A stretch of DNA of 51,878 nt from an uncultured Candidatus Saccharibacteria bacterium (GCA_964427585.1 CAYRVC010000002.1:130864-182741); one strand, 5' to 3'. Positions 3,202 through 38,915 are shown, counted from the stretch's first letter. The notes: generated by a model from the sequence alone, not told the origin. A program made the numbers and translations.

Positions 3202-3702
3202 TTATTTAAGCAAGAATTTATCAACGGTCATATCCAAATCGATAAACTCGTCAGCCACTTCTTTTAATTTCGCGGAAGTTGTTCTGCCAAAAGCCATCAC
3301 CTCCACTCTTTTACCCTGATTCTTTAAATATTCTACAAGGGCGATAAAGTCGCCGTCTCCGGACACTAGGACAATCACATCCAAACCAGGGGATGTCCTA
3401 ATGGCGTCAATGACGATGCCCACGTCCCAGTCGGCTTTTTTTGCTCCGCCGTAAAATTCCTGCAAGTCTCTTACTCTTGTTTCAATGCCCAGCTTTGAAA
3501 GCGCTTCAAAAAACGGCTTTTCTTCTCCGGTTTTCGTTTTAACAACATAGGCAAATGCCCTTATGAACTTTCTGCCGGATATCGCCTGTTTTAAAACTTC
3601 TTTAAAATTAACTTTTGCCCGGTAAAGGTTTTTTGCCGAGTGGTATAAGTTTTGGACGTCGATCAAAACTTCTACGCGCTGCTCTTTTGGTTTTATTGCC
3701 AT
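3202..3702 (-). CDS. NYN-domain (LabA/DUF88, PIN-like) protein
   Basis: IDVQNLY, KKADWDVGIVIDA, LVSGDGDF and ADEFIDL motifs. Confidence 0.9.
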   Translation of the reverse strand: MAIKPKEQRVEVLIDVQNLYHSAKNLYRAKVNFKEVLKQAISGRKFIRAFAYVVKTKTGEEKPFFEALSKLGIETRVRDLQEFYGGAKKADWDVGIVIDAIRTSPGLDVIVLVSGDGDFIALVEYLKNQGKRVEVMAFGRTTSAKLKEVADEFIDLDMTVDKFLLK

Positions 3703-6665: not shown

Positions 6666-8156
6666 ATGTTAATTCCGAAAGAAATAAAATCTATTTTGGA
6701 AAAACTCCAAAAAGCGGGTTTTGAGGCGTATATCGTGGGCGGATGCGCGCGGGATTTTTTACTGGAAAGGGAGCCTAAAGATTGGGACATAACCACAAAC
6801 GCCAAGCCGGAAGAAATACAAAAAATATTTCCCGACAGTTTTTATGAAAATAGTTTTTTGACGGTAAGCGTCAGAACCGGCAGTAAAAACGCAAAATTGC
6901 GGGAAATTGAAATTACAACCTACCGCTCTGAAGCCAAATATTCCGATAAAAGGCACCCTGACCAGGTAAAATTCGCCAAAACCCTGGAGGAAGATTTGGC
7001 AAGAAGGGATTTCACCATTAACGCTATTGCGATAGATTTGAAAATTAATAAATTGAGAAATTCATTGAAAATTGAAAATTGTAAATTGAAAATTGTTGAC
7101 CCGTTTGGCGGACAGGAGGATTTGAAAAATAAAACAATCAGGGCAGTTGGCAACGCGGAGGAAAGGTTTAACGAGGATGCCTTAAGGATGATGAGGGCAG
7201 TGAGGTTTGCGGCAACTTTAAATTTTGAGATTGAGAAAAATACGGCAGAGGCAATTAAAAAAAATTCTCCGTGGATGAAAGAGATTTCCGAAGAAAGGAT
7301 AAGGGACGAGTTTTTAAAGATTATAATGTCAGAAAGGGCGGCCGAAGGAGTGGAGATTTTAAGAGAATTGGGATTGTTAAAACATATTATTCCCGAGCTT
7401 GAAGAAGGCTTCGGGGTTTCTCAGAATAAGCACCATATTTACGACTGCTATCAGCACCTTTTAAAATCATTGGAATACGCCGTAAAAAAGAAATTCAATC
7501 TGCATGTGCGGTTGGCTGCGCTTTTTCACGATATTGCCAAACCAAGGGTTAAAAGGGGCGAAGGCGAAGAAGCGACATTTTATAACCACGAAATCGTGGG
7601 GGCTAAAATGACATTTTCAATATTAAACCGCCTGAAATTTCCCAAAAAAGACGTTGAAAAAATTTCAAAGCTGGTAAAATTCCATTTGTTTTATTATAAT
7701 GTGGGCGAGGTGTCGGAATCTTCTGTGAGGAGATTGGTAAAAAACGTGGGGTCAGAAAACATAGACGAGCTTTTAGAGGTAAGGCAGGCTGACAGAATAG
7801 GATCCGGGGTTCCCAAGGCGGAGCCCTATAAACTAAGGCATTTAAAGTACATAATAGAAAAAATCAGCAAAGACCCGATATCAGCGAAAATGCTTAAAAT
7901 AAACGGAGACGATATAATGAAACTTCTAAAAATAAAGCCGGGGCCGAAAGTCGGCCATATTTTAGACATTCTTTTGAAGTCCGTTATAGACGACCCGGAA
8001 AAAAATAAAAAAGAATTTTTAGAAAAAGAAACAGTAAGGCTGGGAAATCTAAGCGACAGAGAGCTTGAGAAATCGGCCCAAGGATCAAAAGAAGAGATAG
8101 AAAAGATAGAAACCAAAAAAGACCAAATGACCAAAGAAAAATACTGGGTAACTTAA
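6666..8156 (+). CDS. cca: CCA tRNA nucleotidyltransferase / poly(A) polymerase family with HD domain
   Basis: YIVGGCARD, DWDITTNA, EDLARRDFTINA, EDALRMMRAVRF, LFHDIAKP motifs. Confidence 0.9.
   Translation: MLIPKEIKSILEKLQKAGFEAYIVGGCARDFLLEREPKDWDITTNAKPEEIQKIFPDSFYENSFLTVSVRTGSKNAKLREIEITTYRSEAKYSDKRHPDQVKFAKTLEEDLARRDFTINAIAIDLKINKLRNSLKIENCKLKIVDPFGGQEDLKNKTIRAVGNAEERFNEDALRMMRAVRFAATLNFEIEKNTAEAIKKNSPWMKEISEERIRDEFLKIIMSERAAEGVEILRELGLLKHIIPELEEGFGVSQNKHHIYDCYQHLLKSLEYAVKKKFNLHVRLAALFHDIAKPRVKRGEGEEATFYNHEIVGAKMTFSILNRLKFPKKDVEKISKLVKFHLFYYNVGEVSESSVRRLVKNVGSENIDELLEVRQADRIGSGVPKAEPYKLRHLKYIIEKISKDPISAKMLKINGDDIMKLLKIKPGPKVGHILDILLKSVIDDPEKNKKEFLEKETVRLGNLSDRELEKSAQGSKEEIEKIETKKDQMTKEKYWVT
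7038..7094 (+). repeat. AT-rich TTGAAAATT-type repeat tract inside the cca coding sequence
   Basis: ttgaaaatt/gaaaatt/gtaaatt units encode KINKLRNSLKIENCKLKI between NAIAID and VDPFGG. Confidence 0.75.
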
Positions 8157-8793: not shown

Positions 8794-8864
8794 GGGCCTA
8801 TAGTAAAATGGCATTACGCGGCATTCGCATTGCCGAGTTCCGGGTTCGACTCCCGGTGGGTCCA
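8794..8864 (+). tRNA. tRNA-Ala(CGC)
   Basis: GGGCCTA/TGGGTCC acceptor with the G3:U70 alanine determinant; CGGCA-TT-CGC-AT-TGCCG anticodon arm. Confidence 0.93.
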
Positions 8865-8876
8865 CTAAACTGAGTT

Positions 8877-10421
8877 ATGGTAGAATTTTTTAAAAAATAT
8901 TTTTTGTTTTTTACGGTATTTTTGACCGGAGCCGGCGTTTTGATTATTGAGGTTGTTGCCATGCGCGTTCTTGCCCCGTATTACGGAAACACCATATTCA
9001 CGGCATCAAGCGTCATAACCGTTATTCTTGCGGCTTTAAGCATCGGGTATTATGCGGGCGGCAGGCTGGCTGACCGCTACCGCTCGCTCCGTCTTTTTTT
9101 CACTATAATTCTTTTTAGCGGATTGTGCCTGCTTTTTTTCCATTTTGCCAGTTTCGCGATTATACCTGCTCAAAGCCTTGTTTTTTCCATTATTACGGGG
9201 CCTTTGGTTTCTTCTTTATTTTTATTTTTTTTGCCGGCATTGTTGCTTGGGACCATTTCGCCATACGCGATTAAATTGCAAACCGTTTATTTTCCAGAGC
9301 AGGGAGTGGGAACGGTTGCCGGAAAAATTTTCTTCTGGTCCACGCTGGGAAGCATTGTCGGCAGTTTGTCGGCCGGCTTTGTATTGATTCCCAATTTTGG
9401 CATAAACCAGATTATTGTTGCCACGGGGGCAGCTTTGGTTTTTCTTGGATTGGTTCCGCTTATAAATATTGGCTTGGATAAAAAAATTTTAGACAAATAT
9501 ATTATTGTTTTTTTTGTTATTATGACGGCAGCCGTGTTGTCGGGATATGAAACAAATAAGAAAATTATTTATAGCAAAGACGGCGTTTATGAAAAAATAA
9601 TTATTTACGAAGGAGAGCATTCGGGCAGGCCGGCAAGATTTTTTGCGCAGGACCACTCCCTTTCCGGCGCCTCGTTCCTTGATTCTCAAAATCCCTCAGA
9701 TATGGTTTTTGACTACACAAAATACTACAGGCTTTATAAAATTTTAAAGCCAGACGCAAAAGAAGTCCTTATTATAGGCGGAGGAGCTTATTCTATCCCC
9801 AAGGCGATATTGCACGAATTGCCCGATGCCTCGGTTGACGTTTCTGAAATAGAGCCGTCATTGTTTGATTTGGCAAAAAAGTATTTTGGAGCAAAAGACA
9901 ATCCGAGTCTGCGCAATGTTACGGAAGACGGACGGCGTTTTCTGCGCCTGTCTGAAAAAAAATACGACATGATATTCAGCGACGTGTATTTTTCGCTTTA
10001 TTCTGTTCCGCCACACTTTACAACACAGGAATTTTTTAAAATCGCAAAAGAAAAACTCAATAAAGACGGCATTTTAATCATGAATATAATCGGAGATTTG
10101 TCATTGGGGGGCGCTTCACTGATTATGTCGGAAGCAAAGACACTGCGGACTGTTTTCGAAAACAGTTATTTTTTTGCCGTTGACAGCCCCCAAAAAAAAG
10201 GGGCGCAAAATGTTATTTTTGTAGGCTATAACAGCGGCAAGAAAATTGATTTTAATGACTCGTTAATTATTAACCATCAAGATGATATTATCCGGCAACT
10301 TAAAGACAAAGCAATTGATATGGATAAGTTCGATTTGTCTTCAGAAATAGTGCTTTCAGACAATTATTCTCCGGTTGAATACCTTACTGCGAAAGTTTTG
10401 AAAAAAAATTTTGGTTATTGA
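8877..10421 (+). CDS. Fused MFS-like membrane domain / spermidine synthase-like SAM-dependent protein
   Basis: N-terminal TM block (IEVVAMRVLAPYYGNT, STLGSIVG) and C-terminal VLIIGGGAYSIP, EDGRRFL, YDMIFSDV, LSDNYSPVE. Confidence 0.88.
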   Translation: MVEFFKKYFLFFTVFLTGAGVLIIEVVAMRVLAPYYGNTIFTASSVITVILAALSIGYYAGGRLADRYRSLRLFFTIILFSGLCLLFFHFASFAIIPAQSLVFSIITGPLVSSLFLFFLPALLLGTISPYAIKLQTVYFPEQGVGTVAGKIFFWSTLGSIVGSLSAGFVLIPNFGINQIIVATGAALVFLGLVPLINIGLDKKILDKYIIVFFVIMTAAVLSGYETNKKIIYSKDGVYEKIIIYEGEHSGRPARFFAQDHSLSGASFLDSQNPSDMVFDYTKYYRLYKILKPDAKEVLIIGGGAYSIPKAILHELPDASVDVSEIEPSLFDLAKKYFGAKDNPSLRNVTEDGRRFLRLSEKKYDMIFSDVYFSLYSVPPHFTTQEFFKIAKEKLNKDGILIMNIIGDLSLGGASLIMSEAKTLRTVFENSYFFAVDSPQKKGAQNVIFVGYNSGKKIDFNDSLIINHQDDIIRQLKDKAIDMDKFDLSSEIVLSDNYSPVEYLTAKVLKKNFGY

Positions 10422-22224: not shown

Positions 22225-23754
22225 ATGGAACAATTTATTTTATTGCTAACAGTAACCCTGTCAATGATTGGAGGCTCCATTTTAGGCTATTATGTCCGCC
22301 AATCGATAGCCAAAAGAAGAGCGGGAACATTGGAGGCAAAACTAGAGAAAAAAGTATTGCAGGTAAAGGAGGAAACTTCAGCCGCAATAAAAAAAGCCAA
22401 TGAAAAAGCCTCGGAAATCACAGATCGGGCGCAAAAAGAAATCGACGAAAGGAGAAGGGAATTTTTGAAAGCCCAGCAGCTTTTGCTGAACAGGGAAAAA
22501 CTGCTTGATTCAAAGATTGCTTCATTCGAGGGAAAGGAGGCGGAGCTAAAGGCAAAGGAAGAAAAAGTGAAGGAAATAAAAGAAGGATTGGATAAATTAA
22601 GGCTTGAAGCGGAAAAAAAGCTGGAAAAAGTGGCCAACCTTTCAAGAGAAGAAGCCAAGAAAGAGCTTTTAAGCCTGGTGGAAATAGAATACGAAAGGGA
22701 TATTTTAGAAAAGGTTAAAAAAATGGAAGAGAAAGGCAAAGAAAAGCTACAAGCCAGGGCAAAGGAAATAATCGCCATGGCGATACAAAAATGCGCCGTG
22801 CCCCAGACGCAGGAATTATCCACCACCACTATTATTCTGCAAAACGAGGATATTAAAGGAAGGATTATCGGAAAAGAGGGCAGAAATATTAAAACGTTTG
22901 AAAAGCTTACAGGCGTTGAGTTGATAGTGGACGAAACCCCTGATTCGGTGGTTATTTCCGGGTTCAATCCGGTGCGGAGGCAAATAGCCAAAATCGCTTT
23001 GGAAAAACTGATTCAGGACGGAAGGATACAACCGGCAAAAATTGAAGAAAAAATAGAAGAGGCCAAGGTTGAAATAGCCAATAAAATAAAGGAAGCCGGA
23101 GAGAAGGCCGCTTATGAAACAGGAATAATCGGCATGGATGACAAATTGGTGCAGATATTGGGCAGGCTTTATTATAGAACAAGTTACGGGCAAAACGTTC
23201 TTCTCCATTCAATGGAAGTGGCTTTGATATCGGAAACAATAGCCGAGGAGTTGAAAGCTGACAGTCAAGTTGCCAAAAGGGCAGGCCTTTTGCACGACAT
23301 AGGAAAAGCCATTGACCACCAGGTGCAAGGATCCCATATTGAAATCGGCATTAAAATACTGGAAAAATTCGGAGAATCGGAAGCTATAATAAAGGCCATG
23401 AGGGGCCACCACGAAGATTATCCCGCCGAAACGCTGGAAGCCATTATTGTAAAAACAGCCGACGCCGTTTCAGGGTCACGCCCCGGAGCAAGGAAAGACA
23501 CTTTGGAAAATTATCTTCAAAGGCTGAAGTCGCTTGAGGATATAGCCAATAAATTCCAGGGAGTTGACCGGTCTTATGCCATACAGGCTGGCAGGGAAAT
23601 AAGGGTTTTCGTGAAAGCGGATATGATTGACGATTTGGGAACCCAGAAAATGGCAAAGCAAATCGCCCAGGAAATCGAAGAAGAGCTGAAATACCCAGGT
23701 GAAATAAAGGTGGTTGTCGTAAGAGAAAACAGGGTGGTGGAATACGCCAGGTAG
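22225..23754 (+). CDS. rny: Ribonuclease Y
   Basis: N-terminal TM, coiled coil, KH (KGRIIGKEGRNI), HD (RTSYGQNVLLHS, LLHDIGKA), YAIQAGREIRV. Confidence 0.97.
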   Translation: MEQFILLLTVTLSMIGGSILGYYVRQSIAKRRAGTLEAKLEKKVLQVKEETSAAIKKANEKASEITDRAQKEIDERRREFLKAQQLLLNREKLLDSKIASFEGKEAELKAKEEKVKEIKEGLDKLRLEAEKKLEKVANLSREEAKKELLSLVEIEYERDILEKVKKMEEKGKEKLQARAKEIIAMAIQKCAVPQTQELSTTTIILQNEDIKGRIIGKEGRNIKTFEKLTGVELIVDETPDSVVISGFNPVRRQIAKIALEKLIQDGRIQPAKIEEKIEEAKVEIANKIKEAGEKAAYETGIIGMDDKLVQILGRLYYRTSYGQNVLLHSMEVALISETIAEELKADSQVAKRAGLLHDIGKAIDHQVQGSHIEIGIKILEKFGESEAIIKAMRGHHEDYPAETLEAIIVKTADAVSGSRPGARKDTLENYLQRLKSLEDIANKFQGVDRSYAIQAGREIRVFVKADMIDDLGTQKMAKQIAQEIEEELKYPGEIKVVVVRENRVVEYAR

Positions 23755-30429: not shown

Positions 30430-31302
30430 CATTGCCCGTATAAAAAGTTTGTAATTTGCGACCCCAAAGAAAGGATAATCCATAAGTCCGCGCTAGTTGA
30501 TAGGATTGTCCATCAGATGATTTTTAATTATTTAAACCCCATATTCGAAGACAGGTTTATTTTTGACATATATGCTTCGATAAAATGCCGGGGAAATCAC
30601 TTAGTGGTTAAAAATTTCAGGATGAAATGCTTAAGAGAAAGCCGAGGGGGAAGGAGGGTGATTTGGGTATTAAAATGCGATATCAAGAAATTCTTTGATA
30701 GCATCGACCACAAAATCCTATTTTCTTTTATTGCAAAACAGGTTAAGGACGAGAAAATCCTTAAATTAATAAAAGACATATTGTTCAGCTATAATGTATT
30801 ACCGGGCAAAGGCCTCCCCTTAGGCAACCTAACCAGCCAACTTTTTGCCAATATTTATCTTCACGAGCTCGATTACCATGTAAAGCACGTTTTGAAGATA
30901 AAAAACTATGTTCGGTTTAATGATGATTTTGTTATCATTTCTGAAGATAAAAATATTTTGCAGGATTTTTCGGCAAAAATTAAAGAATTTTTACATGACA
31001 GGCTGGAACTAAGCCTCCCTAATAACAAAACATCAACAAGAAAATTCATGTGGTGAATAGACTTTTTGGGATATATAGCCTTGCCCGGAGGATTTTTATT
31101 AAGAAAGAAAACCAAAAAAAGAATGTTCCGCAAGATTGAAGAGAGAAGCATCAAATACCTGAAAAACAAAATATCTTTTAATAAGAAAAATCAAACAGTA
31201 AATTCTTACTTGGGGATGATAAAAAACTGCAATTCCTTCAGATTAAATCAAAAAGTCCTATTAACGCTATTGCTAATGGATGAAAAAAGTTTTGATGTTT
31301 AG
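30430..31302 (+). pseudogene. Decayed DGR-type reverse transcriptase (5'-truncated, one in-frame TGA)
   Basis: One frame reads HCPYKKFVICDPKERIIHKSALVDRIVHQ, VLKCDIKKFFDSIDH, GLPLGNLTSQLFANIYL, YVRFNDDF, then MW*IDFLGY with TGA at 31054-31056. Track ORFs 30517-31056 and 31066-31302 are the same frame. No start codon after the upstream TAA at 30388-30390 until 30517. Confidence 0.9.
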
Positions 31303-31371
31303 ATGGAAAGTTTTACTATTAAAGAAATATATCACTTTTTAACGATGCAAAAATGGTAAATTATAAGTCAA

Positions 31372-31393
31372 AAGAGGGCTTTGAAGCCCTCTT
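31372..31393. terminator. Hairpin downstream of tRNA-Leu and the RT remnant
   Basis: aagagggct-ttga-agccctctt. Confidence 0.6.
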
Positions 31394-31423: not shown

Positions 31424-31509
31424 TGGTGCCCGGAGTGGGAGTCGAACCCACATGAGCTTTCGCTCAAAGGATTTTAAGTCCTTCGTGTATACCATTCCAC
31501 CACCCGGGC
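31424..31509 (-). tRNA. tRNA-Leu(TAA)
   Basis: GCCCGGG/TCCGGGC acceptor, AAGGA-CT-TAA-AA-TCCTT, long variable arm TGAGC-GAAA-GCTCA, encoded CCA. Confidence 0.95.
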
Positions 31510-31516
31510 ATGTCTT

Positions 31517-32254
31517 TTATATTATTTTAAAAGTTGTACGTATTTTATTTTTCCAACTAGATTTATTTTTTTCTAAGAAATAATCATATTTTTTAGAAAA
31601 ATTTTGTGTTTTAGAAATATTTAAAAATTCTGCTTTTCTGTCCATTCCAACTGGATAATTTGTGTAGTACATAAATCTTAATAATTTTAATGTGTCATAC
31701 GTGCCATATCCCAATTTAAGTGAACTGCCATCATTATATCCACATATTTTCTTTTTAAATAAACCTAGTTTCTTGTACAAAATATCCTGAAGGCTTTCTA
31801 AAAATTCAATACTCCCCGAAGTAAAATTACTCCTTAACTCTGATCGTGATTTTTTATTCTTCGTATTTATATAATTCACAAAGAATACGCTTCCATCTCC
31901 ATCAAAATATCCCCTAATAAAATCTGGCAAGAATTTGTTTGGAACCGGGGGAAAAATAACTTTTCTGCTTTTACATCTTACTCCACCAAGTTCTAATAGT
32001 TTCGAATACAATTTTTTAGAAAATATAATTAGATCTTTACTATCATCTCTCTTTCGAAAAATTATTTTATGATCTGAATCTAAACATTTTCTTATAGAAA
32101 GTAATATATTAACATCCTTTGAGCAAAAACTAATTCTATAAGATTTTTCATGACGCATATACCCGTCGGCGAACCAAAACCCTAAAACATATGCCATTTT
32201 TGGACACCATTCATCAAAAAAATTCTCATTAATAAAATACTTTTTTGCCAACAT
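31517..32254 (-). mobile_element. Free-standing double-motif LAGLIDADG homing endonuclease gene (245 aa)
   Basis: AYVLGFWFADG and FIRGYFDGDG motifs; AT-rich. ATG at 32254; the track start lies inside tRNA-Cys. Confidence 0.88.
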
Positions 32255-32255
32255 A

Positions 32256-32331
32256 TGGAGGCGGCGATGAGATTCGCACTCATGTATAGTGGTTTTGCAG
32301 ACCACTGCGTTAGCTTCTTCGCCACGCCGCC
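32256..32331 (-). tRNA. tRNA-Cys(GCA)
   Basis: GGCGGCG/CGCCGCC acceptor, discriminator U, GCA anticodon, encoded CCA; T-loop reads TGCGAAT. Confidence 0.9.
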
Positions 32332-32361
32332 TTATTACCTTCCATTTTATTCCATTCTACT

Positions 32362-32709
32362 TTATTTTTCCTCTTTTTTCAACGATTCCAGCAACTCCTC
32401 CACCCTGCCCAACCTGCCTGTTTCTTCGTCATTTGCAAATTTGATTTTAGGGATGGGGCGCATATTCAGTTTTTTGTTTATTTTTTGCTGAATATGAAAA
32501 ACATCTTTATTCAAAATTTTAAAAACTTCACCCGATTTGTTTTCGGGAAATGTTGAAACATAAACTTTTGCCTCAATTAAATTTGAAGTTGTTTCAACGC
32601 GGGTTAGGGTAACCATGACTCCGTCGGGAAAAGAGATTTCCCTAAGGATTATTCCGCTTATTTCCCGCTTCAGCAAGGAGTTCACTTTTTCAACGCGATT
32701 GCTTGGCAT
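32362..32709 (-). CDS. rbfA: Ribosome-binding factor A
   Basis: RVEKVNSLLKREIS, VTLTRVETT, MRPIPKIKF; follows infB. Confidence 0.92.
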   Translation of the reverse strand: MPSNRVEKVNSLLKREISGIILREISFPDGVMVTLTRVETTSNLIEAKVYVSTFPENKSGEVFKILNKDVFHIQQKINKKLNMRPIPKIKFANDEETGRLGRVEELLESLKKEEK

Positions 32710-32730
32710 ATTGATTCTTGTTTGAAGTTT

Positions 32731-34248
32731 TTATAACTCGCCCTTTTTCCGCTCTTCTGTATATGCCGCCAAAATATCTCCCTTTTCAATCTTCACGTTT
32801 CCTTCAAATAAAATTCCTGCTTCGTCGCCTTTTACCAGGCGGTCTGCATTTTTTTTATCGCGCTGGAGGTTGATTATTTTTCCCGCCCCTGTTTTTTTGT
32901 TATCCCGGACAACTTCCAGCTTCAATCCTTTTTTTAATTCGCCTTCAATGATTTTTCCGCCGACAATCTGGCGGTTTTTTTCTCCCCAGAAAACAAGCAG
33001 TGTTTTTAGTTTGCCGATGTCTTTTCTGATGATTTCCGGTTCCAGTTTTTTTTCCAGACCCTGCCTTATGTCCTGTATCAGTTCGTAAATCACATTGAAT
33101 ATTTTAATCCTTAACTGCTTTTCCATATCGTTTTTCATAAACCTTACAACCTCTGGAGACATTTTTACCCTGAAGCCGATTATTTGGGCTTTTGACATTT
33201 TTGCAAGTTTCAGGTCGTTTTCTGAAATATCGCCTGCCTCCGACTTTAAAATCCTTAAAATAACCTTATCCTGAGGCAAGTTTTTCAGCATTGATTCTAT
33301 CGCCTCCAGCGAGCCGAAAACGTCAGCTTTTAAGATTATATTAAGTATTTTTTTATCGGGGTCTGTTTCAAGCACCGTTGAGCCGATTTCTCTTTTCGGC
33401 CCTTCTTTTTTTAATTTTTGTTCAGCCTCCTCAACTGTTTTGTAACTTTTAAATTTTTCTCCGACTGCCGGAACTTTTTCAAATCCCAGAACAATTGCCG
33501 GCTGTGAGGGTTTTGCTTCTTCAATTTCTTTGCCCTGGAAATTCTGCAAAGACCTCACTTTTGCCAAAGCCAAATCCGTGGCTATTATATCCTTTTTTCT
33601 TAAAATTCCTTTTTTAACAATAACAGTGGCAATAGGGCCTTTTAAGCCGTGCATATAGGATTCGATTACCAGCCCTTCGCTTGGAACATCTGTTTTTGCT
33701 TTTAATTCTTTGATGTCGGCCATCAGCAAAATTATTTCCAGCAGTTCAGGTATCCCTGTTTTTTCTTTCGCAGACACCTCAACCGATGGAATGTCGCCCC
33801 CCATTGATTCTGCCAAAATATTGATTTTTGCCAGTTCTCCTTTTATTTTTTCAGGGTTGGCTGTCGGCAGGTCAATTTTGTTTAAAACAATAATCATGGG
33901 GATTTCCGCCATTTTTATTGCCGCTATCGCTTCTTTTGTCTGCGGTTGCACCGATTGGGCGGCATCAATAACCAATAGGGCGATATCTGCCACACTGGCT
34001 CCCCTCGCCCTCATCGCGGAAAACGCCTCGTGCCCGGGCGTATCTATAAAGGTTATTTTTTTTCCCTTTTCTTCCACCTCGTAAGCTCCTATATGCTGGG
34101 TAATTCCGCCTGACTCTTTGGAGGTTATTTTAAAATCCCTGATAGCTTCCAAAAGGGAAGATTTTCCATGGTCCACATGGCCTAAAACAACCGCCACCGG
34201 CGGCCTTGTTTTTATATCCTCGTTTTGTTTTTTATTATTTTCAGCCAT
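32731..34248 (-). CDS. infB: Translation initiation factor IF-2 (short form without the long N-terminal domain)
   Basis: RPPVAVVLGHVDHGKSSLL, GGITQHIGAY, DTPGHEAF, NKID, ILKADVFGSLEAI. Confidence 0.97.
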   Translation of the reverse strand: MAENNKKQNEDIKTRPPVAVVLGHVDHGKSSLLEAIRDFKITSKESGGITQHIGAYEVEEKGKKITFIDTPGHEAFSAMRARGASVADIALLVIDAAQSVQPQTKEAIAAIKMAEIPMIIVLNKIDLPTANPEKIKGELAKINILAESMGGDIPSVEVSAKEKTGIPELLEIILLMADIKELKAKTDVPSEGLVIESYMHGLKGPIATVIVKKGILRKKDIIATDLALAKVRSLQNFQGKEIEEAKPSQPAIVLGFEKVPAVGEKFKSYKTVEEAEQKLKKEGPKREIGSTVLETDPDKKILNIILKADVFGSLEAIESMLKNLPQDKVILRILKSEAGDISENDLKLAKMSKAQIIGFRVKMSPEVVRFMKNDMEKQLRIKIFNVIYELIQDIRQGLEKKLEPEIIRKDIGKLKTLLVFWGEKNRQIVGGKIIEGELKKGLKLEVVRDNKKTGAGKIINLQRDKKNADRLVKGDEAGILFEGNVKIEKGDILAAYTEERKKGEL

Positions 34249-34300
34249 TAAAATAAATATTAAACAGGCGATTTTTTTGTTATCGCCTTATTCTTTTCAT

Positions 34301-34389
34301 TGGCGGAGGAGGTGGGACTCGAACCCACAAGACAGCTTGCGCCGTCAAAGTTTAGCAAACTTTTGGAATAACCATTATCCGACTCCTCC
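34301..34389 (-). tRNA. tRNA-Ser(GCT)
   Basis: GGAGGAG/CTCCTCC acceptor, AAAGT-TT-GCT-AA-ACTTT, long variable arm, discriminator G, encoded CCA. Confidence 0.93.
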
Positions 34390-34471
34390 AGTTGATTTTT
34401 TATTTTACTATTTAAAATCAATTAAGTCAATTTGATTTTATGAATATTTGTGATATGGTTAAAATAATAAT

Positions 34472-34544
34472 GCGCCCGTAGTTTAATGGATAAAACGTAG
34501 GGTTGCGGACCCTAAAACTGCAGGTTCGATTCCTGCCGGGCGCA
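34472..34544 (+). tRNA. tRNA-Arg(GCG)
   Basis: GCGCCCG/CGGGCGC acceptor, TAGGG-TT-GCG-GA-CCCTA, GCAGG-TTCGATT-CCTGC. Confidence 0.93.
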
Positions 34545-34547
34545 CAT

Positions 34548-36752
34548 ATGTTAACTCTCGAAACGCCGGTTGAGCAGTTTCCTAAAATAGGTTTAGCTTA
34601 TCAAAAAAAACTTAAAAAACTGGGGATTAAAACAATCCAGGACATGCTTTTTTATTTTCCGGCAAGGTATGATGATTTTTCAAAAATAATCAAAATATCT
34701 TATGCCAGGCAGAAACTGGGGGAAACCGTATGTCTGCAGGGGAGAATCACCCAAATAGAATCAATGCTGACCTGGAAAAAGGGAATGAGCGTGATTGAAG
34801 CTTCTGTCGAGGATAATACGGGAAGCATGCGGGCGATTTGGTTTAATCAGCCGTATTTGGCAAAAATTTTGGCAGAAGACGATTTTGTATGCCTGGCGGG
34901 AAAGGTAAGCCTGGGGAAAAGCGGGCTTTATCTGAATAATCCCAGTTACGAAAAAATAAACGGAATAGGGGAAAATGAAAACCTCACCCATACGGGCAGA
35001 ATAGTTCCCGTGTATCCTGAAACAAAAGGTATTACCTCAAGGTGGCTTAGATATGTAATAAAGCCTCTGCTTTTTATGTTTTCAGAACAGGTGCAAGAAA
35101 GCCTCCCCCGCGAAATAATCAAAAAAAATAAATTTTTAAATATCAACGAAGCCCTGTGGCAACTGCATTTTCCCGATTCTTTTGAGCACGCGGACGCGGC
35201 TAAGGCGCGTTTTTCTTTTGAAGAAATTTTTTTAATACAACTTCTCGCCCTTAAAGAGAAGATGCGGCTGATGCAGAAAAAATCAGAGGCTTTTTCGCTG
35301 GACGAAAATCTAATGAAACGGTTTGCGAAATCTTTGGCTTTTAAGCTTACCGACTCCCAAAGAAAATGCGCGTTTCAGGTGTTGAAAGATTTGGAAAAAA
35401 CAGTTCCGATGTCCAGGTTGCTTGAAGGGGATGTCGGGTCAGGAAAAACAGCGGTGGCGGTGATGGCTAGCCTGAATGTCGTGAAAAATTCCATATCTCC
35501 TGCCGGCCAGGTTGCCTATTTGGCTCCCACGGAAATACTGGCAAAACAGCATTTTAAAAATATTTCCCAGTTGCTGGACAGCTTTGGCGTAAAAATAGGC
35601 CTTTTAACCAGCAAAGAAGCAAGGATTAAAAGCGACAGTGAAATATCGGAGGTTTCCAAAAAAAGCCTTCTGGGGGATTTGGAAAACGGCCAGCTTGATA
35701 TTATTATCGGAACGCATTCTCTTATCCAAAAAGGAGTGGATTTTAAAAATTTGGCCTTGGTGATTGTGGACGAACAGCACAGGTTCGGGGTCAGCCAGCG
35801 CAGCGCTTTGGTAAGCAGAGGCGATAAAATGCCCCACTTGTTATCAATGACAGCCACTCCTATTCCCCGCACTTTGGCGTTGACCGTTTACGGAGATTTG
35901 GATTTGTCGCTGATAGACGAGATGCCAAAAAACAGGAAAAAAATAAAAACAATCGTTGTGGAACAAAAGCAGAGAAAAGAGGCTTACGAATTCATAAAAA
36001 AAGAAGTAAAAGAGGGGAAAGGAGTTTTTGTAATCTGCCCGAAAATAGAAAGCAAAAAAGAAAATTCATCAAATATGACCGATATGTCCGGTTCTTACTC
36101 AGCTGAATTCGGCTTATCTGACTTTAAGCCAAAGAATTATGACTTGAGAAGCTTATCGATAATGGAAGTGAAGGCGGTGAAAGATGAATATGAAAAGCTT
36201 TCATCTGAAATTTTTCCGGATTTGAGGATAACAATGCTGCACGGAAGAATGAAGCCGAAAGAAAAAGAAATAATAATGCAGGATTTTAAAAACGGCGAGA
36301 TTGATATTTTAGTTTCCACTTCTGTCGTGGAGGTGGGAATTGATGTTCCCAGGGCCACAATAATGATGATAGAGGGAGCCGAGCGTTTTGGCTTGGCCCA
36401 GCTCCACCAGTTCCGTGGCAGGGTGGGAAGGTCGGATATGCAGTCATACTGTTTTTTATTTACCACCGACCCCAGCCAGCAAAACAGAAGGCGGCTGAAG
36501 GCAATGGTTGAATATGACAGCGGCTTCAAATTGGCTGAAAAAGATTTGGAAATTAGAGGCCCCGGCCAGATTTACGGAACTCAGCAGTGGGGAATTCCGG
36601 ACATTGCCATGCAGGGACTGACCAATATATTTTTGGTTGAAAAAACCAGGCAGGCGGCAAAAGAAATTTTAGAAAAAGACCCTGAATTGGAAAATCACCC
36701 TTTATTAAAAGAAAGGCTAAAACAATTTCAACAGAGAATACACTTTGAATAG
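34548..36752 (+). CDS. recG: ATP-dependent DNA helicase RecG
   Basis: FYFPARYDD, WFNQPY, EGDVGSGKT, VDEQHRFGV, MTATPIPRTL, AQLHQFRGRVGR, DLEIRGPG. ATG at 34548; the track start is inside the tRNA. Confidence 0.97.
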   Translation: MLTLETPVEQFPKIGLAYQKKLKKLGIKTIQDMLFYFPARYDDFSKIIKISYARQKLGETVCLQGRITQIESMLTWKKGMSVIEASVEDNTGSMRAIWFNQPYLAKILAEDDFVCLAGKVSLGKSGLYLNNPSYEKINGIGENENLTHTGRIVPVYPETKGITSRWLRYVIKPLLFMFSEQVQESLPREIIKKNKFLNINEALWQLHFPDSFEHADAAKARFSFEEIFLIQLLALKEKMRLMQKKSEAFSLDENLMKRFAKSLAFKLTDSQRKCAFQVLKDLEKTVPMSRLLEGDVGSGKTAVAVMASLNVVKNSISPAGQVAYLAPTEILAKQHFKNISQLLDSFGVKIGLLTSKEARIKSDSEISEVSKKSLLGDLENGQLDIIIGTHSLIQKGVDFKNLALVIVDEQHRFGVSQRSALVSRGDKMPHLLSMTATPIPRTLALTVYGDLDLSLIDEMPKNRKKIKTIVVEQKQRKEAYEFIKKEVKEGKGVFVICPKIESKKENSSNMTDMSGSYSAEFGLSDFKPKNYDLRSLSIMEVKAVKDEYEKLSSEIFPDLRITMLHGRMKPKEKEIIMQDFKNGEIDILVSTSVVEVGIDVPRATIMMIEGAERFGLAQLHQFRGRVGRSDMQSYCFLFTTDPSQQNRRRLKAMVEYDSGFKLAEKDLEIRGPGQIYGTQQWGIPDIAMQGLTNIFLVEKTRQAAKEILEKDPELENHPLLKERLKQFQQRIHFE

Positions 36753-36825
36753 AATTTCTAATTTTCAATTTTCAAACAAAAAACCGGCGAGAAGCCGGAT
36801 TTCTATGCAAAAATCGTTTTTTTGG

Positions 36826-37131
36826 TTATAATTTGGTGCCCAGCTTTTCGGCAATTTGCTGAAACCACTTTTCGTGCGTGTCGACGCGAAGGTTGACTCT
36901 TGAGGCGACCGTAATAAATTCCTGGCGCAGATCGTCTATTGCTTTAACCAGTTTGTCAACGGAAATAACCAGTGCCCTCACCAATTCCTTTAAGTCGTTG
37001 ATATCGGTTTTAATTTCTTTTTTAAAAACCTTGAATTCTTCTTGGGGCAACATTCTAAAGGATAGATTGTTAAAATCCTCCTTAGTTGCCAGAAACTGCG
37101 TCAATTTTTCGATATCCGAATCCTCAAGCAT
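36826..37131 (-). CDS. Small coiled-coil protein with its own promoter and downstream hairpin
   Basis: LATKEDF...DKLVKAIDDLRQEF...IAEKLGTKL, loosely like 19332/19860; hairpin aaaccggc-gagaa-gccggattt near 36780-36805. Confidence 0.7.
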   Translation of the reverse strand: MLEDSDIEKLTQFLATKEDFNNLSFRMLPQEEFKVFKKEIKTDINDLKELVRALVISVDKLVKAIDDLRQEFITVASRVNLRVDTHEKWFQQIAEKLGTKL

Positions 37132-37146
37132 TTATTATGTGTTTTA

Positions 37147-37174
37147 ATTATAGTGATGAGTATTTATATGTCAA
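37147..37174 (-). promoter_or_regulatory. Consensus sigma70 promoter for 36826-37131
   Basis: TTGACA (37174-37169), 16 bp, TATAAT (37152-37147). Confidence 0.7.
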
Positions 37175-37238
37175 TCCTGGCTTTAATCTTAACACTTGTA
37201 AAATAAAAATCCGATTAAAACCGGATTTTTCAGGCTTT

Positions 37239-38777
37239 CTATTTGCGTATTTTTTCAGTGACCCAAAATCCCATATGTTTGCCCAGCATCAGGCGGATTT
37301 GGGCGTCTAAGGCGGGAAAAGAGCCGAATACGATTAATGTCACAGGCAACAGCAGCCACTGTAAAAATATGGACATCCTTTTTCTCAATCTTATATAGCG
37401 CCCGAATTTTTTAGGCAGAGGCGGCAGAAGCATCGTGCTTAAAATGGCGGAAACGAACATTCCGATAAGAGAGACTGTCATTATTCTGCTGGTAAGAATG
37501 GGAAGGTTGAAGGAAAGGATGGTAAGGTTGAATTTTTCCCCTCCTAAAATTAATGGCAGCCATCCTAAAACAAACAGCAGGAGGGCGGCTGTGGACCATG
37601 ACCAGAAGCCGTCGATTATCGTGTACAAATGGGAGATTTTTTTCAAAGAGGAAATTTTTTTGTTTTTCCAGAAACCGAAAATTATGTAAGGTATTTCGCT
37701 ACAGCCCCAGGCCCAGCGTTTTTGCTGTTTATACTGGTTTATTATTGTTTTAAAAAAGCTTAAAGTCATTACGGCATCCATTGAAACCAGGTAATAAATG
37801 GGCACTACCCGGTAATCGCCGTCGTAGCAAAGATAAGCCCTCCAGAAGATTCTGGAATCGTCGGAAACAACGTTTGCCGGATATCCCACTTCAAAAAATA
37901 CCTTGCCGGGAATGGAGTGGGAAGAATATGTGGTAAGCTTTTCCGCCCTTTCCTGCTGAATCATCTGCCAAAAGGTGTTGGATGTTGAGACAACCCTGGC
38001 AAAGGCGGAAGCAGACCAGATGTTATTGTTATAAACCGGAATAGGCTGATAACTTGCTTTTAAAGGATTTTCCATTGCCAGGTAATACCATGTGAGGCAC
38101 GCAAAATATTGAGGATAAACTTTAGTGTCTATGTCAAAACTTGAAACCAAGATATTCTCGTAAGGAATTTTTGATTCGTCTATGAATTTTTTGGCTTCTT
38201 TCCCTGCCCAGGCGACATTAGACCCCTTCCCGCTTATTTCCCCAGGTATATTGTCTGGGTGGGCGGATATCAAAAATTTATAAAAATTGGAGCCATATTT
38301 TTTTGCGATGGTTTCTGCCGCTTCTTCTGCCTTTTGTCCGGCCCGTTTTTCTATTGCCAGGACAACTATCATTTTTTCTTTCGGATAATTTGAATTTACC
38401 AAAGAATCAATGGTTTCTTTTATTATTTCCGGGCCCTCTTTGTATGTGGGCAGGATTATAAGGTGGTATATATTTTTCCATTCGCGGTTTTTTTTAAGAG
38501 CCCTCATCCAGTCTTTTTTCAAATGACTTTTTATTTTAAAGTAGCTTACGATCTGGTGCAGAGAAAAATAAACTACCCTGAAAAGATAATAAAGGCAGAA
38601 ACAAATTATAAATATGGCCACGTATGAGGGAATCAGCCAAGAAAAAACAAGAACTCCGAAAAGAGTTCCCAAGCTTAAAATTCCAGGAATGGTTTCCAGC
38701 AGGCGGTATAACAATCTTTCTTTTTGGTTTTTTATATCGCCGGCTTTTGAAATATCCAGATAATCTTTTTTTTCCAT
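37239..38777 (-). CDS. Processive-type GT2 family membrane glycosyltransferase
   Basis: HLIILPTYKE, SGKGSNVAWA, SSFDIDT, VVSDDSRIFW, QQKRWAWG, flanking TM helices. ATG at 38777; the track start runs through tRNA-Glu. Confidence 0.88.
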   Translation of the reverse strand: MEKKDYLDISKAGDIKNQKERLLYRLLETIPGILSLGTLFGVLVFSWLIPSYVAIFIICFCLYYLFRVVYFSLHQIVSYFKIKSHLKKDWMRALKKNREWKNIYHLIILPTYKEGPEIIKETIDSLVNSNYPKEKMIVVLAIEKRAGQKAEEAAETIAKKYGSNFYKFLISAHPDNIPGEISGKGSNVAWAGKEAKKFIDESKIPYENILVSSFDIDTKVYPQYFACLTWYYLAMENPLKASYQPIPVYNNNIWSASAFARVVSTSNTFWQMIQQERAEKLTTYSSHSIPGKVFFEVGYPANVVSDDSRIFWRAYLCYDGDYRVVPIYYLVSMDAVMTLSFFKTIINQYKQQKRWAWGCSEIPYIIFGFWKNKKISSLKKISHLYTIIDGFWSWSTAALLLFVLGWLPLILGGEKFNLTILSFNLPILTSRIMTVSLIGMFVSAILSTMLLPPLPKKFGRYIRLRKRMSIFLQWLLLPVTLIVFGSFPALDAQIRLMLGKHMGFWVTEKIRK

Positions 38778-38854
38778 GGTGGCCCCAACCGGATTTGAAC
38801 CGGTGTTCTCAGCTTGAAAAGCTGGTGTACTGGACCAGGCTATACGATGGGGCC
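38777..38854 (-). tRNA. tRNA-Glu(TTC)
   Basis: GGCCCCA/TGGGGCC acceptor, loop TT-TTC-AA, T-loop TTCAAAT, encoded CCA. Confidence 0.93.
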
Positions 38855-38915
38855 GTACTGAATTTCGTAATTCAAGGTATGTATTCAATTTTACATAGAA
38901 AACTGAAAAAATCAA

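What the first reader, a model, noticed from the sequence alone, without database searches (positions are those of the whole stretch)
32252..38854. Start codons abut or overlap tRNA 3' ends (tRNA-punctuated, possibly leaderless mRNAs)
Seen in three places: tRNA-Glu, where the A of CCA (38777) is the A of the GT2 ATG; tRNA-Cys, where CCA-T-ATG starts the LAGLIDADG gene (32254); and tRNA-Arg(GCG), where discriminator-CAT-ATG starts recG (34548). tRNA-Ala is also only 12 nt from the next ATG. There is no room for a Shine-Dalgarno site outside the tRNA. Inference: tRNA 3' processing would release leaderless messages or, for Glu, compete with translation by cutting at the start codon (a CCA-adding enzyme in this window could rebuild the tRNA end). 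Alternatively the tRNA acts as a stabilising or ribosome-recruiting leader.
Basis: partly seen in the sequence, partly recalled or inferred. Interest (0 to 1): 0.62.

Follow-up and report, generated by a model that had tools for sequence, protein, structure and literature searches.

The report
Protein genes starting at tRNA ends
In this groundwater Patescibacteria (Staskawiczbacteria-like) genome, several protein genes begin one to four bases after a tRNA gene, and for one of them (tRNA-Glu followed by an envelope glycosyltransferase) the arrangement is kept in about 30 other species, which suggests that cutting out the tRNA releases a message with almost no leader, as happens in mitochondria.

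Summary
All three start codons are confirmed by N-terminal conservation.

Only one junction exceeds general compaction.
- tRNA-Glu(UUC) to GT2: across 65 species genomes the ATG lies exactly 1 nt (15) or 2 nt (15) after the discriminator, and never 0. That is 30/65 with a gap of 3 nt or less, against 14% of gene-gene junctions (p=6e-9). The state is scattered over the whole GT2 tree.
- tRNA-Arg to recG and tRNA-Ala junctions fit ordinary spacing: other tRNAs 8%, and 3 of 8 in the window gives p=0.09.
- The LAGLIDADG ORF fills an ancestral 7-14 nt tRNA-Cys/tRNA-Leu spacer, and this is conserved across lineages.

"No room for a Shine-Dalgarno site" is moot. The clade is SD-less: 8.4% of genes have an SD core, against 7.7% in the control.

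New here: 193/194 tRNA genes of the clade encode C74 but usually not C75-A76.

Best reading, inferred without RNA data: tRNA promoters drive these ORFs. An endonucleolytic cut at N73/C74 frees a 0-2 nt-leader AUG mRNA, and the CCA-adding enzyme completes the tRNA.

This is a new bacterial variant of tRNA punctuation.

The parts
38888..38915 (-). Promoter-like site TTGATT-16-TAAAAT upstream of tRNA-Glu
   Evidence: In most related loci a conserved cTTGa..tttTTCAATTTTT....TAnAAT motif ends 10-13 nt before the tRNA-Glu 5' end.
38777..38854 (-). tRNA-Glu(UUC). Discriminator A at 38780, C74 at 38779, C75 at 38778. A76 at 38777 is shared with the ATG.
   Evidence: ARAGORN. Rfam tRNA 59.2 bits over 38780..38854. 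Sequence. The cloverleaf is kept in the co-transcript fold.
37239..38777 (-). Family-2 glycosyltransferase with membrane domains (512 aa). Its ATG overlaps the tRNA-Glu CCA.
   Evidence: Start conserved in 120 homologues. Weak GT2, chitin-synthase and PgaC-like matches. The first 61 nt fold at only -2.9 kcal/mol.
32354..32382 (-). Promoter-like site TTGAAA-17-TAGAAT at the end of rbfA, 22 nt before tRNA-Cys
32256..32331 (-). tRNA-Cys(GCA) with U73 and an encoded CCA
31517..32254 (-). LAGLIDADG endonuclease-like ORF (245 aa). It starts 1 nt after the CCA of tRNA-Cys and stops 7 nt before tRNA-Leu.
   Evidence: Pfam LAGLIDADG_3. Homologues and N-termini. The same sandwich is found in L082, L084-L086 and L089-L091. 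tRNA-Cys and tRNA-Leu are directly adjacent in L070, L078 and L080.
31424..31509 (-). tRNA-Leu(UAA) with an encoded CCA. Its 5' end would define the 3' end of the ORF message.
31370..31393 (-). Terminator-like hairpin (GAGGGCU-UCAA-AGCCCUC followed by UUUU) closing the tRNA-Cys/ORF/tRNA-Leu unit
   Evidence: Read by eye. It was not listed by the scan because the T-run is shorter than that scan's rule.
34472..34544 (+). tRNA-Arg(GCG), no CCA. Discriminator A at 34544, C74 at 34545.
34548..36752 (+). recG (734 aa). The ATG lies 3 nt after the discriminator.
   Evidence: Pfam RecG_wedge, DEAD and Helicase_C. N-terminal alignment with orthologues, whose gaps are 3, 4, 11, 14 and 14 nt.
8794..8864 (+). 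tRNA-Ala(CGC), no CCA, C74 encoded
8877..10421 (+). Membrane-anchored spermidine-synthase-like protein. The ATG lies 12 nt after the discriminator.
6666..8156 (+). CCA-adding tRNA nucleotidyltransferase, needed to complete tRNAs cut at N73 or C74
   Evidence: Pfam PolyA_pol, RNAbd and HD. NCBIfam NF009814 scores 296.9 bits against a cut-off of 290.
22225..23754 (+). RNase Y, a candidate endonuclease in RNA processing and decay
   Evidence: Pfam RNase_Y_N, KH and HD.
1078..3195 (-). PNPase, a 3'-5' exonuclease that is a possible tRNA trailer trimmer
   Evidence: Pfam RNase_PH x2, KH and S1.
34301..34389 (-). tRNA-Ser(GCU) with an encoded CCA. It heads the minus-strand run tRNA-Ser, infB (34248..32731), rbfA (32709..32362). 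Promoter-like TTGACT-17-TAAAAT lies at 34430..34402.

Best explanation
These are mixed tRNA-mRNA transcription units of an SD-less Patescibacteria lineage, in which the protein gene has neither a promoter nor a 5' UTR of its own.

Proposed sequence of events:
1. Transcription starts at the tRNA promoter.
2. RNase P cuts the tRNA 5' end.
3. An endonuclease cuts the 3' side at the discriminator or, more likely, after the universally encoded C74.
4. The CCA-adding enzyme completes the tRNA.
5. The downstream product is an mRNA that begins at, or 1-2 nt before, its AUG. It is translated by the leaderless, SD-independent route.

For the LAGLIDADG ORF, RNase P cleavage of the following tRNA-Leu would also set the mRNA 3' end. 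That would be a full mitochondria-style 'tRNA punctuation'.

What is shown: the anatomy, its conservation, the absence of SD, the C74 rule and the promoter position.
What is inferred: co-transcription, the cleavage site, the enzyme, and translation of the processed RNA.

The tRNA-Glu/GT2 and tRNA-Cys/ORF/tRNA-Leu units are the real, conserved cases. The tRNA-Arg/recG and tRNA-Ala junctions use the same logic, but their tightness is ordinary compaction.
For: - Starts confirmed.
- tRNA-Glu precedes the GT2 in 65 of 80 species genomes. The N73-to-ATG gap is 1 nt in 15, 2 nt in 15 and never 0, and the rest form a tail of 3-330 nt.
- Enrichment against gene-gene junctions p=6e-9, and against other tRNAs p=3e-8.
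- Gap 1-2 states occur all over the GT2 tree, including outgroups at 54-61% identity.
- The spacer residues are C (14), CC (8), CT (4), CA (3) and T (1). C74 is therefore kept, and the ATG starts at position 75 or 76.
- C74 is encoded in 193/194 tRNA genes of the near clade, covering 21 isoacceptor types, and in 23/25 of an independent sample. Only 39/194 encode the full CCA.
- tRNA-tRNA spacers have a floor of C74+4 nt, whereas tRNA-ATG spacers go down to C74+0.
- A conserved promoter lies 10-13 nt upstream of tRNA-Glu, and no -10-like element lies inside the tRNA 3' part.
- An SD core is found in 8.4% of 561 genes against 7.7% in a control window, and the upstream regions are A/U-rich. Loss of the anti-SD has been reported in about half of Parcubacteria (PMC9297842).
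- The 5' coding region is unstructured, and all abutting starts are ATG. This matches the known leaderless determinants (PMC8459731).
- Unrelated ORFs use the same slot: GIY-YIG genes (L053, L064), an HTH plus LAGLIDADG-like gene (L027, L044, L048), a PdaC-like gene (L020) and an RluA-like gene (L058).
- A CCA-adding enzyme is encoded in the window.
- Precedent for cuts 'between the Cs' of CCA, followed by repair, exists in P. acnes and S. coelicolor (PMC3848588, PMC4681348).
Against: - There are no transcript, 5'-end or ribosome data. No RNA run holds the sequence.
- The 3' endonuclease is not identified. No RNase Z gene was seen in the window, although only part of the genome is in hand.
- Half of the species tolerate 3-330 nt spacers, so a leaderless form is not obligatory.
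- The Glu/GT2 statistic concerns one orthologous junction with shared ancestry.
- C74 conservation could instead reflect RNase P or other precursor recognition rather than the cleavage site.
- With a cut at N73, the window's message would carry a 2-nt leader. In Caulobacter and E. coli that lowers leaderless initiation several-fold.
Confidence: 0.55

Rival explanations
1. Neutral compaction. In a deletion-biased, SD-less small genome, spacers simply shrink until they reach the tRNA end and the start codon. The abutment has no selected role, and expression works in whatever way it can.
For: - Non-Glu tRNA-to-gene gaps (8% at 3 nt or less, median 58) are indistinguishable from gene-gene gaps (14%, median 53; p=0.11).
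- recG orthologue gaps vary from 3 to 14 nt.
- The window-level excess is not significant (p=0.09).
- Half of the Glu/GT2 junctions have longer spacers.
Against: - General spacing in these genomes is not tight (median about 55 nt), yet Glu/GT2 sits at exactly 1-2 nt in 30 of 65 species across deep branches.
- The sharp floor at C74, and the reuse of the same slot by unrelated inserted nuclease genes, point to a functional expression site.
- This rival explains origin, not mechanism. Even if it is true, the message still has to be made from the tRNA transcript.
Confidence: 0.2
2. The unprocessed tRNA-mRNA chimera is the translated species. The folded tRNA acts as a 5' protective cap against 5'-end-dependent decay, or as a ribosome-docking element.
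For: - The cloverleaf and the unstructured coding start fold independently in the co-transcript.
- 5'-monophosphate products of processing are normally decay-prone.
- RNase Y is encoded in the window.
Against: - A start codon 1-2 nt from a closed acceptor stem leaves no single-stranded 5' segment for the ribosomal mRNA channel.
- Spacing between tRNA and AUG is not fixed: 1-2 nt in half of the species and 3-330 nt in the rest. That argues against a geometry-dependent recruiting element.
- This tRNA-Glu is a canonical gene conserved at this site, and is probably the cell's tRNA-Glu(UUC), so it must be released.
Confidence: 0.12
3. Mutually exclusive maturation. The tRNA 3' end is made by a distal endonucleolytic cut in the A/U-rich start of the ORF plus 3' exonuclease trimming back to the encoded CCA. 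Each transcript then yields either a tRNA or a message, which is the first reader's 'competition' idea.
For: - The window's tRNA-Glu, tRNA-Cys, tRNA-Ser and tRNA-Leu(UAA) genes do encode CCA.
- 'CC' is over-represented among the 2-nt spacers (8/15 against a 22% background, p=0.008).
- PNPase and RNase Y are present.
Against: - 51 of 65 tRNA-Glu orthologues, and about 80% of all tRNA genes of the clade, lack CCA. They must be cut at N73 or C74 and completed by the CCA-adding enzyme.
- Under this model the near-universal C74, with free positions 75 and 76, is unexplained.
Confidence: 0.08
4. The ORFs are transcribed from their own promoters hidden inside the tRNA genes, giving primary leaderless transcripts.
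For: Primary leaderless mRNAs are common in several bacterial phyla (PMC4007540, PMC4633059).
Against: - The 12 nt upstream of the ATG are the G/C-rich acceptor 3' strand (TGGGGCCACC), with no TAnnnT element.
- The only conserved promoter lies upstream of the tRNA.
Confidence: 0.05

Closest known systems
Mitochondrial tRNA punctuation (Ojala-Montoya-Attardi model), with leaderless mt-mRNAs
   Same: - ORFs are flanked by tRNA genes with spacers of 0 to a few nt.
- The ORFs have no promoter of their own and no SD.
- Message ends would be set by RNase P and by the 3' tRNA endonuclease.
- Start codons lie at or within 0-3 nt of the 5' end.
   Different: - This is a cellular bacterium with many separate short units, each with its own sigma-70-like promoter, rather than one genome-length precursor.
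- Only a few genes are involved.
- The cut is proposed to fall after an encoded C74 rather than after N73.
- Nothing has been shown at the RNA level.
Bacterial mixed tRNA-mRNA operons (E. coli thrU-tyrU-glyT-thrT-tufB, secG-leuU; PMC2241853)
   Same: A protein gene is co-transcribed with tRNA genes from one promoter and separated from them by RNase P or other nucleases.
   Different: In those operons the protein gene keeps a normal leader with a Shine-Dalgarno site. Here the ATG is 1-4 nt from the tRNA and there is no SD.
tRNA-like 't-elements' that define mRNA ends (plant mitochondria; Haloferax volcanii tRNA-like elements).
   Same: RNase P or tRNase Z cleavage at a tRNA-shaped structure creates the mature end of a neighbouring mRNA.
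   Different: Those are degenerate tRNA-like structures. Here the element is a canonical, conserved tRNA gene that must itself be matured.
Endonucleolytic cleavage inside CCA 'between the Cs' in Actinobacteria (P. acnes PMC3848588; S. coelicolor PMC4681348)
   Same: A cut after C74 is followed by completion by the tRNA nucleotidyltransferase. This is the processing step proposed here.
   Different: - It was observed there on CCA-encoding genes and was not linked to mRNA production.
- Here it is only inferred, from 99% conservation of C74 and from the minimal ATG spacing.
Homing-endonuclease or integrative elements inserted at tRNA gene 3' ends
   Same: - The LAGLIDADG and GIY-YIG ORFs sit exactly at tRNA 3' ends.
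- L053 carries a 19-nt duplicate of the tRNA-Glu 3' end, and L089/L090 carry a degenerate second tRNA-Cys 3' half.
   Different: - There is no integrase and no long element. The insert is a single ORF whose ATG abuts the restored tRNA end.
- The LAGLIDADG ORF is syntenic and well conserved across lineages, which is unlike a freshly mobile gene.

Membership tests
tRNA-punctuated transcription unit (mitochondrial type) | ORF directly flanked by same-strand tRNA genes, with spacers of 0 to a few nt | tested here: met
   - tRNA-Cys, 1 nt, ORF, 7 nt, tRNA-Leu.
- The tRNA-Glu CCA overlaps the GT2 ATG.
- The same layouts occur in related genomes.
tRNA-punctuated transcription unit (mitochondrial type) | tRNA and ORF are parts of one primary transcript | tested here: inconclusive
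   - A promoter-like site lies upstream of each tRNA, conserved for tRNA-Glu.
- There is no room for, and no motif of, a promoter between the tRNA and the ATG.
- A terminator-like hairpin follows tRNA-Leu.
- There are no RNA data.
tRNA-punctuated transcription unit (mitochondrial type) | Mature mRNA ends coincide with RNase P and 3'-endonuclease cleavage sites at the tRNA borders | not testable with these tools
   This needs 5'/3'-end RNA sequencing, and no usable run was found.
Leaderless mRNA (bacterial) | Start codon at the 5' terminus, or within about 0-2 nt of it | not testable with these tools
   The predicted leader is 0-1 nt if the cut falls after C74, and 1-2 nt if it falls after N73. 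The actual 5' end is unknown.
Leaderless mRNA (bacterial) | AUG start codon, unstructured 5' coding region, no SD | tested here: met
   - All abutting starts are ATG.
- The first 61 nt fold at -2.9 kcal/mol.
- The clade has no SD signal.
Classical bacterial tRNA-mRNA operon (tufB type) | The protein gene retains an untranslated leader with a Shine-Dalgarno site | tested here: not met
   The spacers are 1-4 nt. Orthologues with long spacers show no SD either.
CCA-templating tRNA gene | C74-C75-A76 encoded and conserved in orthologues | tested here: not met
   The window's tRNA-Glu reads CCA, but only 14 of 65 orthologues do. In 8 of those the A is the ATG's A. Clade-wide, 39/194 genes encode CCA while 193/194 encode C74.
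tRNA-like leader or t-element | A degenerate tRNA-like structure that is not a functional tRNA | tested here: not met
   These are canonical tRNAs with Rfam scores of 54-74 bits, 7/7 acceptor pairs and proper anticodons.

The most novel reading that the evidence does not exclude
A whole class of Patescibacteria (Staskawiczbacteria and neighbours) may run a mitochondria-like gene-expression mode.
- It has no Shine-Dalgarno pairing.
- Its tRNA genes obligatorily encode only C74.
- A 3' endonuclease cuts after C74 and so manufactures precisely leaderless AUG-mRNAs from tRNA transcripts.
- An essential envelope glycosyltransferase relies on this slot, and selfish nuclease genes (LAGLIDADG, GIY-YIG) repeatedly exploit it as a ready-made expression site.
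Probability: 0.35. Interest if true: 0.8.

Novelty: new variant of a known kind. Interest (0 to 1): 0.62.

Why it matters
- It would be the first bacterial lineage in which tRNA excision is a conserved way of making translatable, leaderless mRNAs. That would show that 'tRNA punctuation' is not an organelle oddity but a solution that reduced, SD-less genomes reach independently.
- It gives concrete, testable predictions: monophosphorylated 5' ends at tRNA position 75 or 76, and a cut after C74.
- It explains recurrent annotation errors. Public gene calls for these ORFs run through the tRNA (549, 541 and 557 aa versions of the GT2) or start at an internal Met (the 226-aa LAGLIDADG).
- It points to an unrecognised rule of tRNA gene structure (C74 only) that bears on how CPR bacteria mature tRNAs and on which nuclease does it.

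Tried and rejected
- RNA evidence. Four run searches found only DNA metagenomes, or three tiny SOLiD metatranscriptomes with zero coverage.
- 16S 3' end. None is present in the window or in 91 loci, so the anti-SD could not be read directly.
- Mis-called starts. Rejected.
- An SD hidden in the tRNA 3' strand. The GGGG or AGGG in the acceptor strand is not conserved (the AGCGGC variants lack it), and the clade has no SD signal at all.
- An internal promoter in the tRNA. No -10-like element was found.
- A general excess of tight tRNA-gene junctions. Rejected for the non-Glu tRNAs.
- Literature. No paper was found on leaderless or tRNA-punctuated mRNAs, RNase Z, or partial CCA templating in CPR.
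- Function of the GT2. Only weak matches were obtained, and this was not pursued further.
- Identity of the 3' endonuclease. Not found among the window's larger ORFs. I did not walk along the contig to look for it.


Full report
**1. What is in the window**

ARAGORN and Rfam find ten tRNA genes. Reading the junctions confirms every coordinate in the finding.
- tRNA-Glu(UUC), minus strand, ends ...UGGGGCC-A(38780)-C-C-A(38777). The last A is the A of the ATG of a 512-aa family-2 glycosyltransferase (GT2).
- tRNA-Cys ends U73-CCA(32256). Then comes one T, then the ATG (32254) of a 245-aa LAGLIDADG ORF. That ORF's stop (31517) lies 7 nt before tRNA-Leu(UAA) (31509).
- tRNA-Arg(GCG) ends A(34544), followed by C-A-T and then the ATG (34548) of recG.
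- tRNA-Ala is followed 12 nt later by the ATG of a membrane spermidine-synthase-like protein.

The minus strand here reads: tRNA-Ser, infB, rbfA, tRNA-Cys, LAGLIDADG, tRNA-Leu, hairpin. The window also encodes a CCA-adding enzyme, RNase Y and PNPase.

**2. The starts are right**

- GT2: a search returned 120 homologues at 70-83% identity, mostly labelled Staskawiczbacteria or Patescibacteria, that begin M[DE]KKDYLDISKA. At the DNA level these codons vary at synonymous positions.
- Several public gene calls are over-extended, and their N-termini are simply the translated tRNA-Glu (P0001, P0013, P0053, P0110, P0064). This was the first hint that the junction is conserved.
- recG aligns from residue 1 with five orthologues.
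- The LAGLIDADG N-terminus is conserved in its closest homologues. Some of these are mis-called from an internal Met or run through tRNA-Cys.

**3. Comparative anatomy of tRNA-Glu/GT2**

I fetched 80 loci, one genome per species. tRNA-Glu(UUC) precedes the GT2 in 65 of them. Measured from the discriminator, the gap to the first long ORF is:
- 1 nt in 15 species and 2 nt in 15 species;
- never 0, and 3 nt only once;
- otherwise a long tail of 4-330 nt.

The spacer is C (14), CC (8, the window's type), CT (4), CA (3) or T (1).

The fraction with a gap of 3 nt or less is 30/65. By the same operational definition it is 89/635 for gene-gene junctions (p=6e-9) and 8/99 for all other tRNAs (p=3e-8).

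On an NJ tree of the GT2 proteins, the gap 1-2 state is scattered through all clades, including outgroups at 54-61% identity. This is the pattern of an ancestral state that is retained, and occasionally broken by insertions. The caveat is that this is one orthologous junction, so the counts are not independent events.

**4. The other junctions**

The tRNA-Arg(GCG)-recG pairing occurs in only six other loci, with gaps of 3, 4, 11, 14 and 14 nt. Elsewhere other genes follow this tRNA. Non-Glu tRNA-to-gene gaps as a whole do not differ from gene-gene gaps (p=0.11). Three tight junctions out of eight in the window is not significant (p=0.09). The recG and tRNA-Ala cases are therefore ordinary compaction.

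The LAGLIDADG case is different.
- In distant relatives, tRNA-Cys and tRNA-Leu(UAA) are directly adjacent, 7-14 nt apart (L070, L078, L080).
- In Staskawiczbacteria- and Nealsonbacteria-like genomes, including two complete ones, the ORF fills this spacer downstream of infB-rbfA. The 5' gap is 2-14 nt and the 3' gap 4-20 nt.
- L089 and L090 keep a degenerate second tRNA-Cys 3' half in front of the ORF, which is a scar of insertion.

**5. The same slot is used by unrelated genes**

- Small GIY-YIG genes start 1 nt after the tRNA-Glu discriminator in L053 and L064. In L053 the insert is followed by a 19-nt duplicate of the tRNA-Glu 3' end, and then by the old spacer and the GT2.
- A 226-230-aa HTH plus LAGLIDADG-like gene does the same in L027, L044 and L048.
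- A PdaC-like gene abuts tRNA-Arg in L020.
- An RluA-like gene abuts tRNA-Val in L058.

**6. Two properties of the clade that change the interpretation**

(a) There is no Shine-Dalgarno signal.
- Among 561 genes with well-bounded starts, 8.4% have GGAG, GAGG or AGGA at -20..-4, against 7.7% in a control window.
- G is depleted and A/U enriched before starts.
- This agrees with the reported loss of the anti-SD motif in about half of Parcubacteria (PMC9297842).
- GT2 orthologues with long spacers also lack an SD.
- So 'no room for an SD' is not an anomaly here.

(b) C74 is encoded almost universally.
- It is present in 193/194 tRNA genes of the near clade, covering 21 isoacceptor types, and in 23/25 of an independent sample.
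- C75 is present in only 24%, position 75 is A in 60%, and the full CCA is present in 20%.
- More distant Patescibacteria show C74 in only 31/47 genes.
- tRNA-tRNA spacers have a floor at C74+4 nt, whereas tRNA-ATG spacers go down to C74+0.
- I found no description of C74-only templating.

**7. Promoters and structure**

A conserved motif, cTTGa..tttTTCAATTTTT....TAnAAT, ends 10-13 nt before tRNA-Glu in most loci. The window has TTGATT-16-TAAAAT ending 33 nt upstream. Promoter-like sites also precede tRNA-Cys and tRNA-Ser.

The 12 nt before the GT2 ATG are the G/C-rich acceptor strand, so there is no internal promoter. In the co-transcript the cloverleaf folds independently, and the first 61 nt of the message are essentially unstructured at -2.9 kcal/mol.

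**8. Mechanism**

The tRNA must be released, and the essential, highly conserved GT2 must be translated from the same RNA.

The simplest model is an endonucleolytic cut at the tRNA 3' end. It yields a tRNA that the CCA-adding enzyme completes, as it must for about 80% of the clade's tRNAs, and an mRNA with a 0-2 nt leader.

The C74 rule, the absence of 0-nt gaps and the C-A consensus suggest that the cut falls after C74.
- That would make the 15 'N73-C-ATG' genomes exactly leaderless.
- It would give the window a 1-nt leader.
- Cuts 'between the Cs' followed by repair have been seen in P. acnes and S. coelicolor.
- ATG-only starts and an unstructured 5' end match the known determinants of leaderless initiation.

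A positioned 'recruiting' tRNA is also unlikely, because the spacing is free in half of the species. All RNA-level steps are inference. No transcriptome could be found, and the nuclease is unidentified.

**9. Comparison and novelty**

Functionally this is closest to mitochondrial tRNA punctuation with leaderless mRNAs. It differs from classical bacterial tRNA-mRNA operons, which keep an SD leader, and from t-elements, which are degenerate tRNAs. I found no report of it in CPR bacteria, or in bacteria generally.

I rate it a new variant of a known kind. Confidence in the processing model is moderate (about 0.55), and interest is about 0.6.

Noticed in passing
All tRNA genes of the window (for example 34545, 38779, 8865) and loci L002-L065, L074, L082-L091: tRNA genes of this clade encode C74 almost without exception (193/194, and 23/25 in a second sample). 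Only about 20% encode the full CCA, and position 75 is A in 60%. More distant Patescibacteria show C74 in only 31/47. I found no description of such 'C74-only' templating.
   Followed up: yes
Window plus 80 loci; 561 gene starts: There is no Shine-Dalgarno enrichment upstream of starts (8.4% against 7.7% in the control). The upstream regions are A/U-rich with G depleted, and T is favoured at -1. This is consistent with the published loss of the anti-SD in part of the Parcubacteria.
   Followed up: yes
L053:5321-5745; also L064 and L038: Small GIY-YIG nuclease genes are inserted right after tRNA-Glu. In L053 the insert is followed by a 19-nt duplicate of the tRNA-Glu 3' end (caaatcccgatgggaccgc), a scar of insertion into the tRNA gene.
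   Followed up: partly
L089:1431-1500 and L090:1431-1500 (complete Nealsonbacteria genomes CP061210 and CP179891): A degenerate second copy of the tRNA-Cys 3' half, ending in CCA, lies between tRNA-Cys and the LAGLIDADG ORF. It suggests that the ORF arrived by insertion into tRNA-Cys. Even so, the ORF is syntenic and 55-79% identical across lineages, which is unusually stable for a homing endonuclease.
   Followed up: partly
window 30517-31056 (+), perhaps continuing into 31066-31302: A short reverse-transcriptase ORF (179 aa; RVT_1; best NCBIfam match is group II intron RT/maturase at 102 bits, below the cut-off). It converges on the tRNA-Leu terminator and looks like a truncated or split retroelement gene.
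   Followed up: no
window 37147-37174 (-), upstream of ORF 37131..36826: A perfect consensus promoter, TTGACA-16-TATAAT (12/12), lies in front of a 101-aa coiled-coil ORF of unknown function just downstream of the GT2.
   Followed up: no
window 34249-34301 (-): The CCA of tRNA-Ser is followed directly by ATG and a 6-codon mini-ORF (ATGAAAAGAATAAGGCGATAA). That mini-ORF overlaps a hairpin (AGGCGAT-N9-ATCGCCT) just before infB. It could be a terminator or attenuator between tRNA-Ser and infB, or it could be chance.
   Followed up: no
Upstream of tRNA-Glu in L003-L065 (about -45 to -10 relative to the tRNA): There is a strikingly conserved promoter with an invariant spacer block: cTTGa..tttTTCAATTTTT....TAnAAT. 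Conservation of the TTCAATTTTT spacer suggests a factor-binding or discriminator-like element.
   Followed up: partly
Public proteins P0001, P0013, P0053, P0064, P0110 (GT2) and P0124, P0125, P0128, P0153 (LAGLIDADG): Automated annotation systematically mis-calls these genes. Some are extended through the tRNA, so their N-termini are translated tRNA. Others are truncated to an internal Met to avoid the tRNA.
   Followed up: yes
window 32731-34248 (-): IF2 is only 505 aa long. It starts at the G domain and lacks the N-terminal domains of typical bacterial IF2.
   Followed up: no
L091, tRNA-Phe (complementary strand, 3517-3589): This is another junction of the form A73-C74-ATG (caCATGAAAAAATT). 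I did not check whether a real ORF follows.
   Followed up: no
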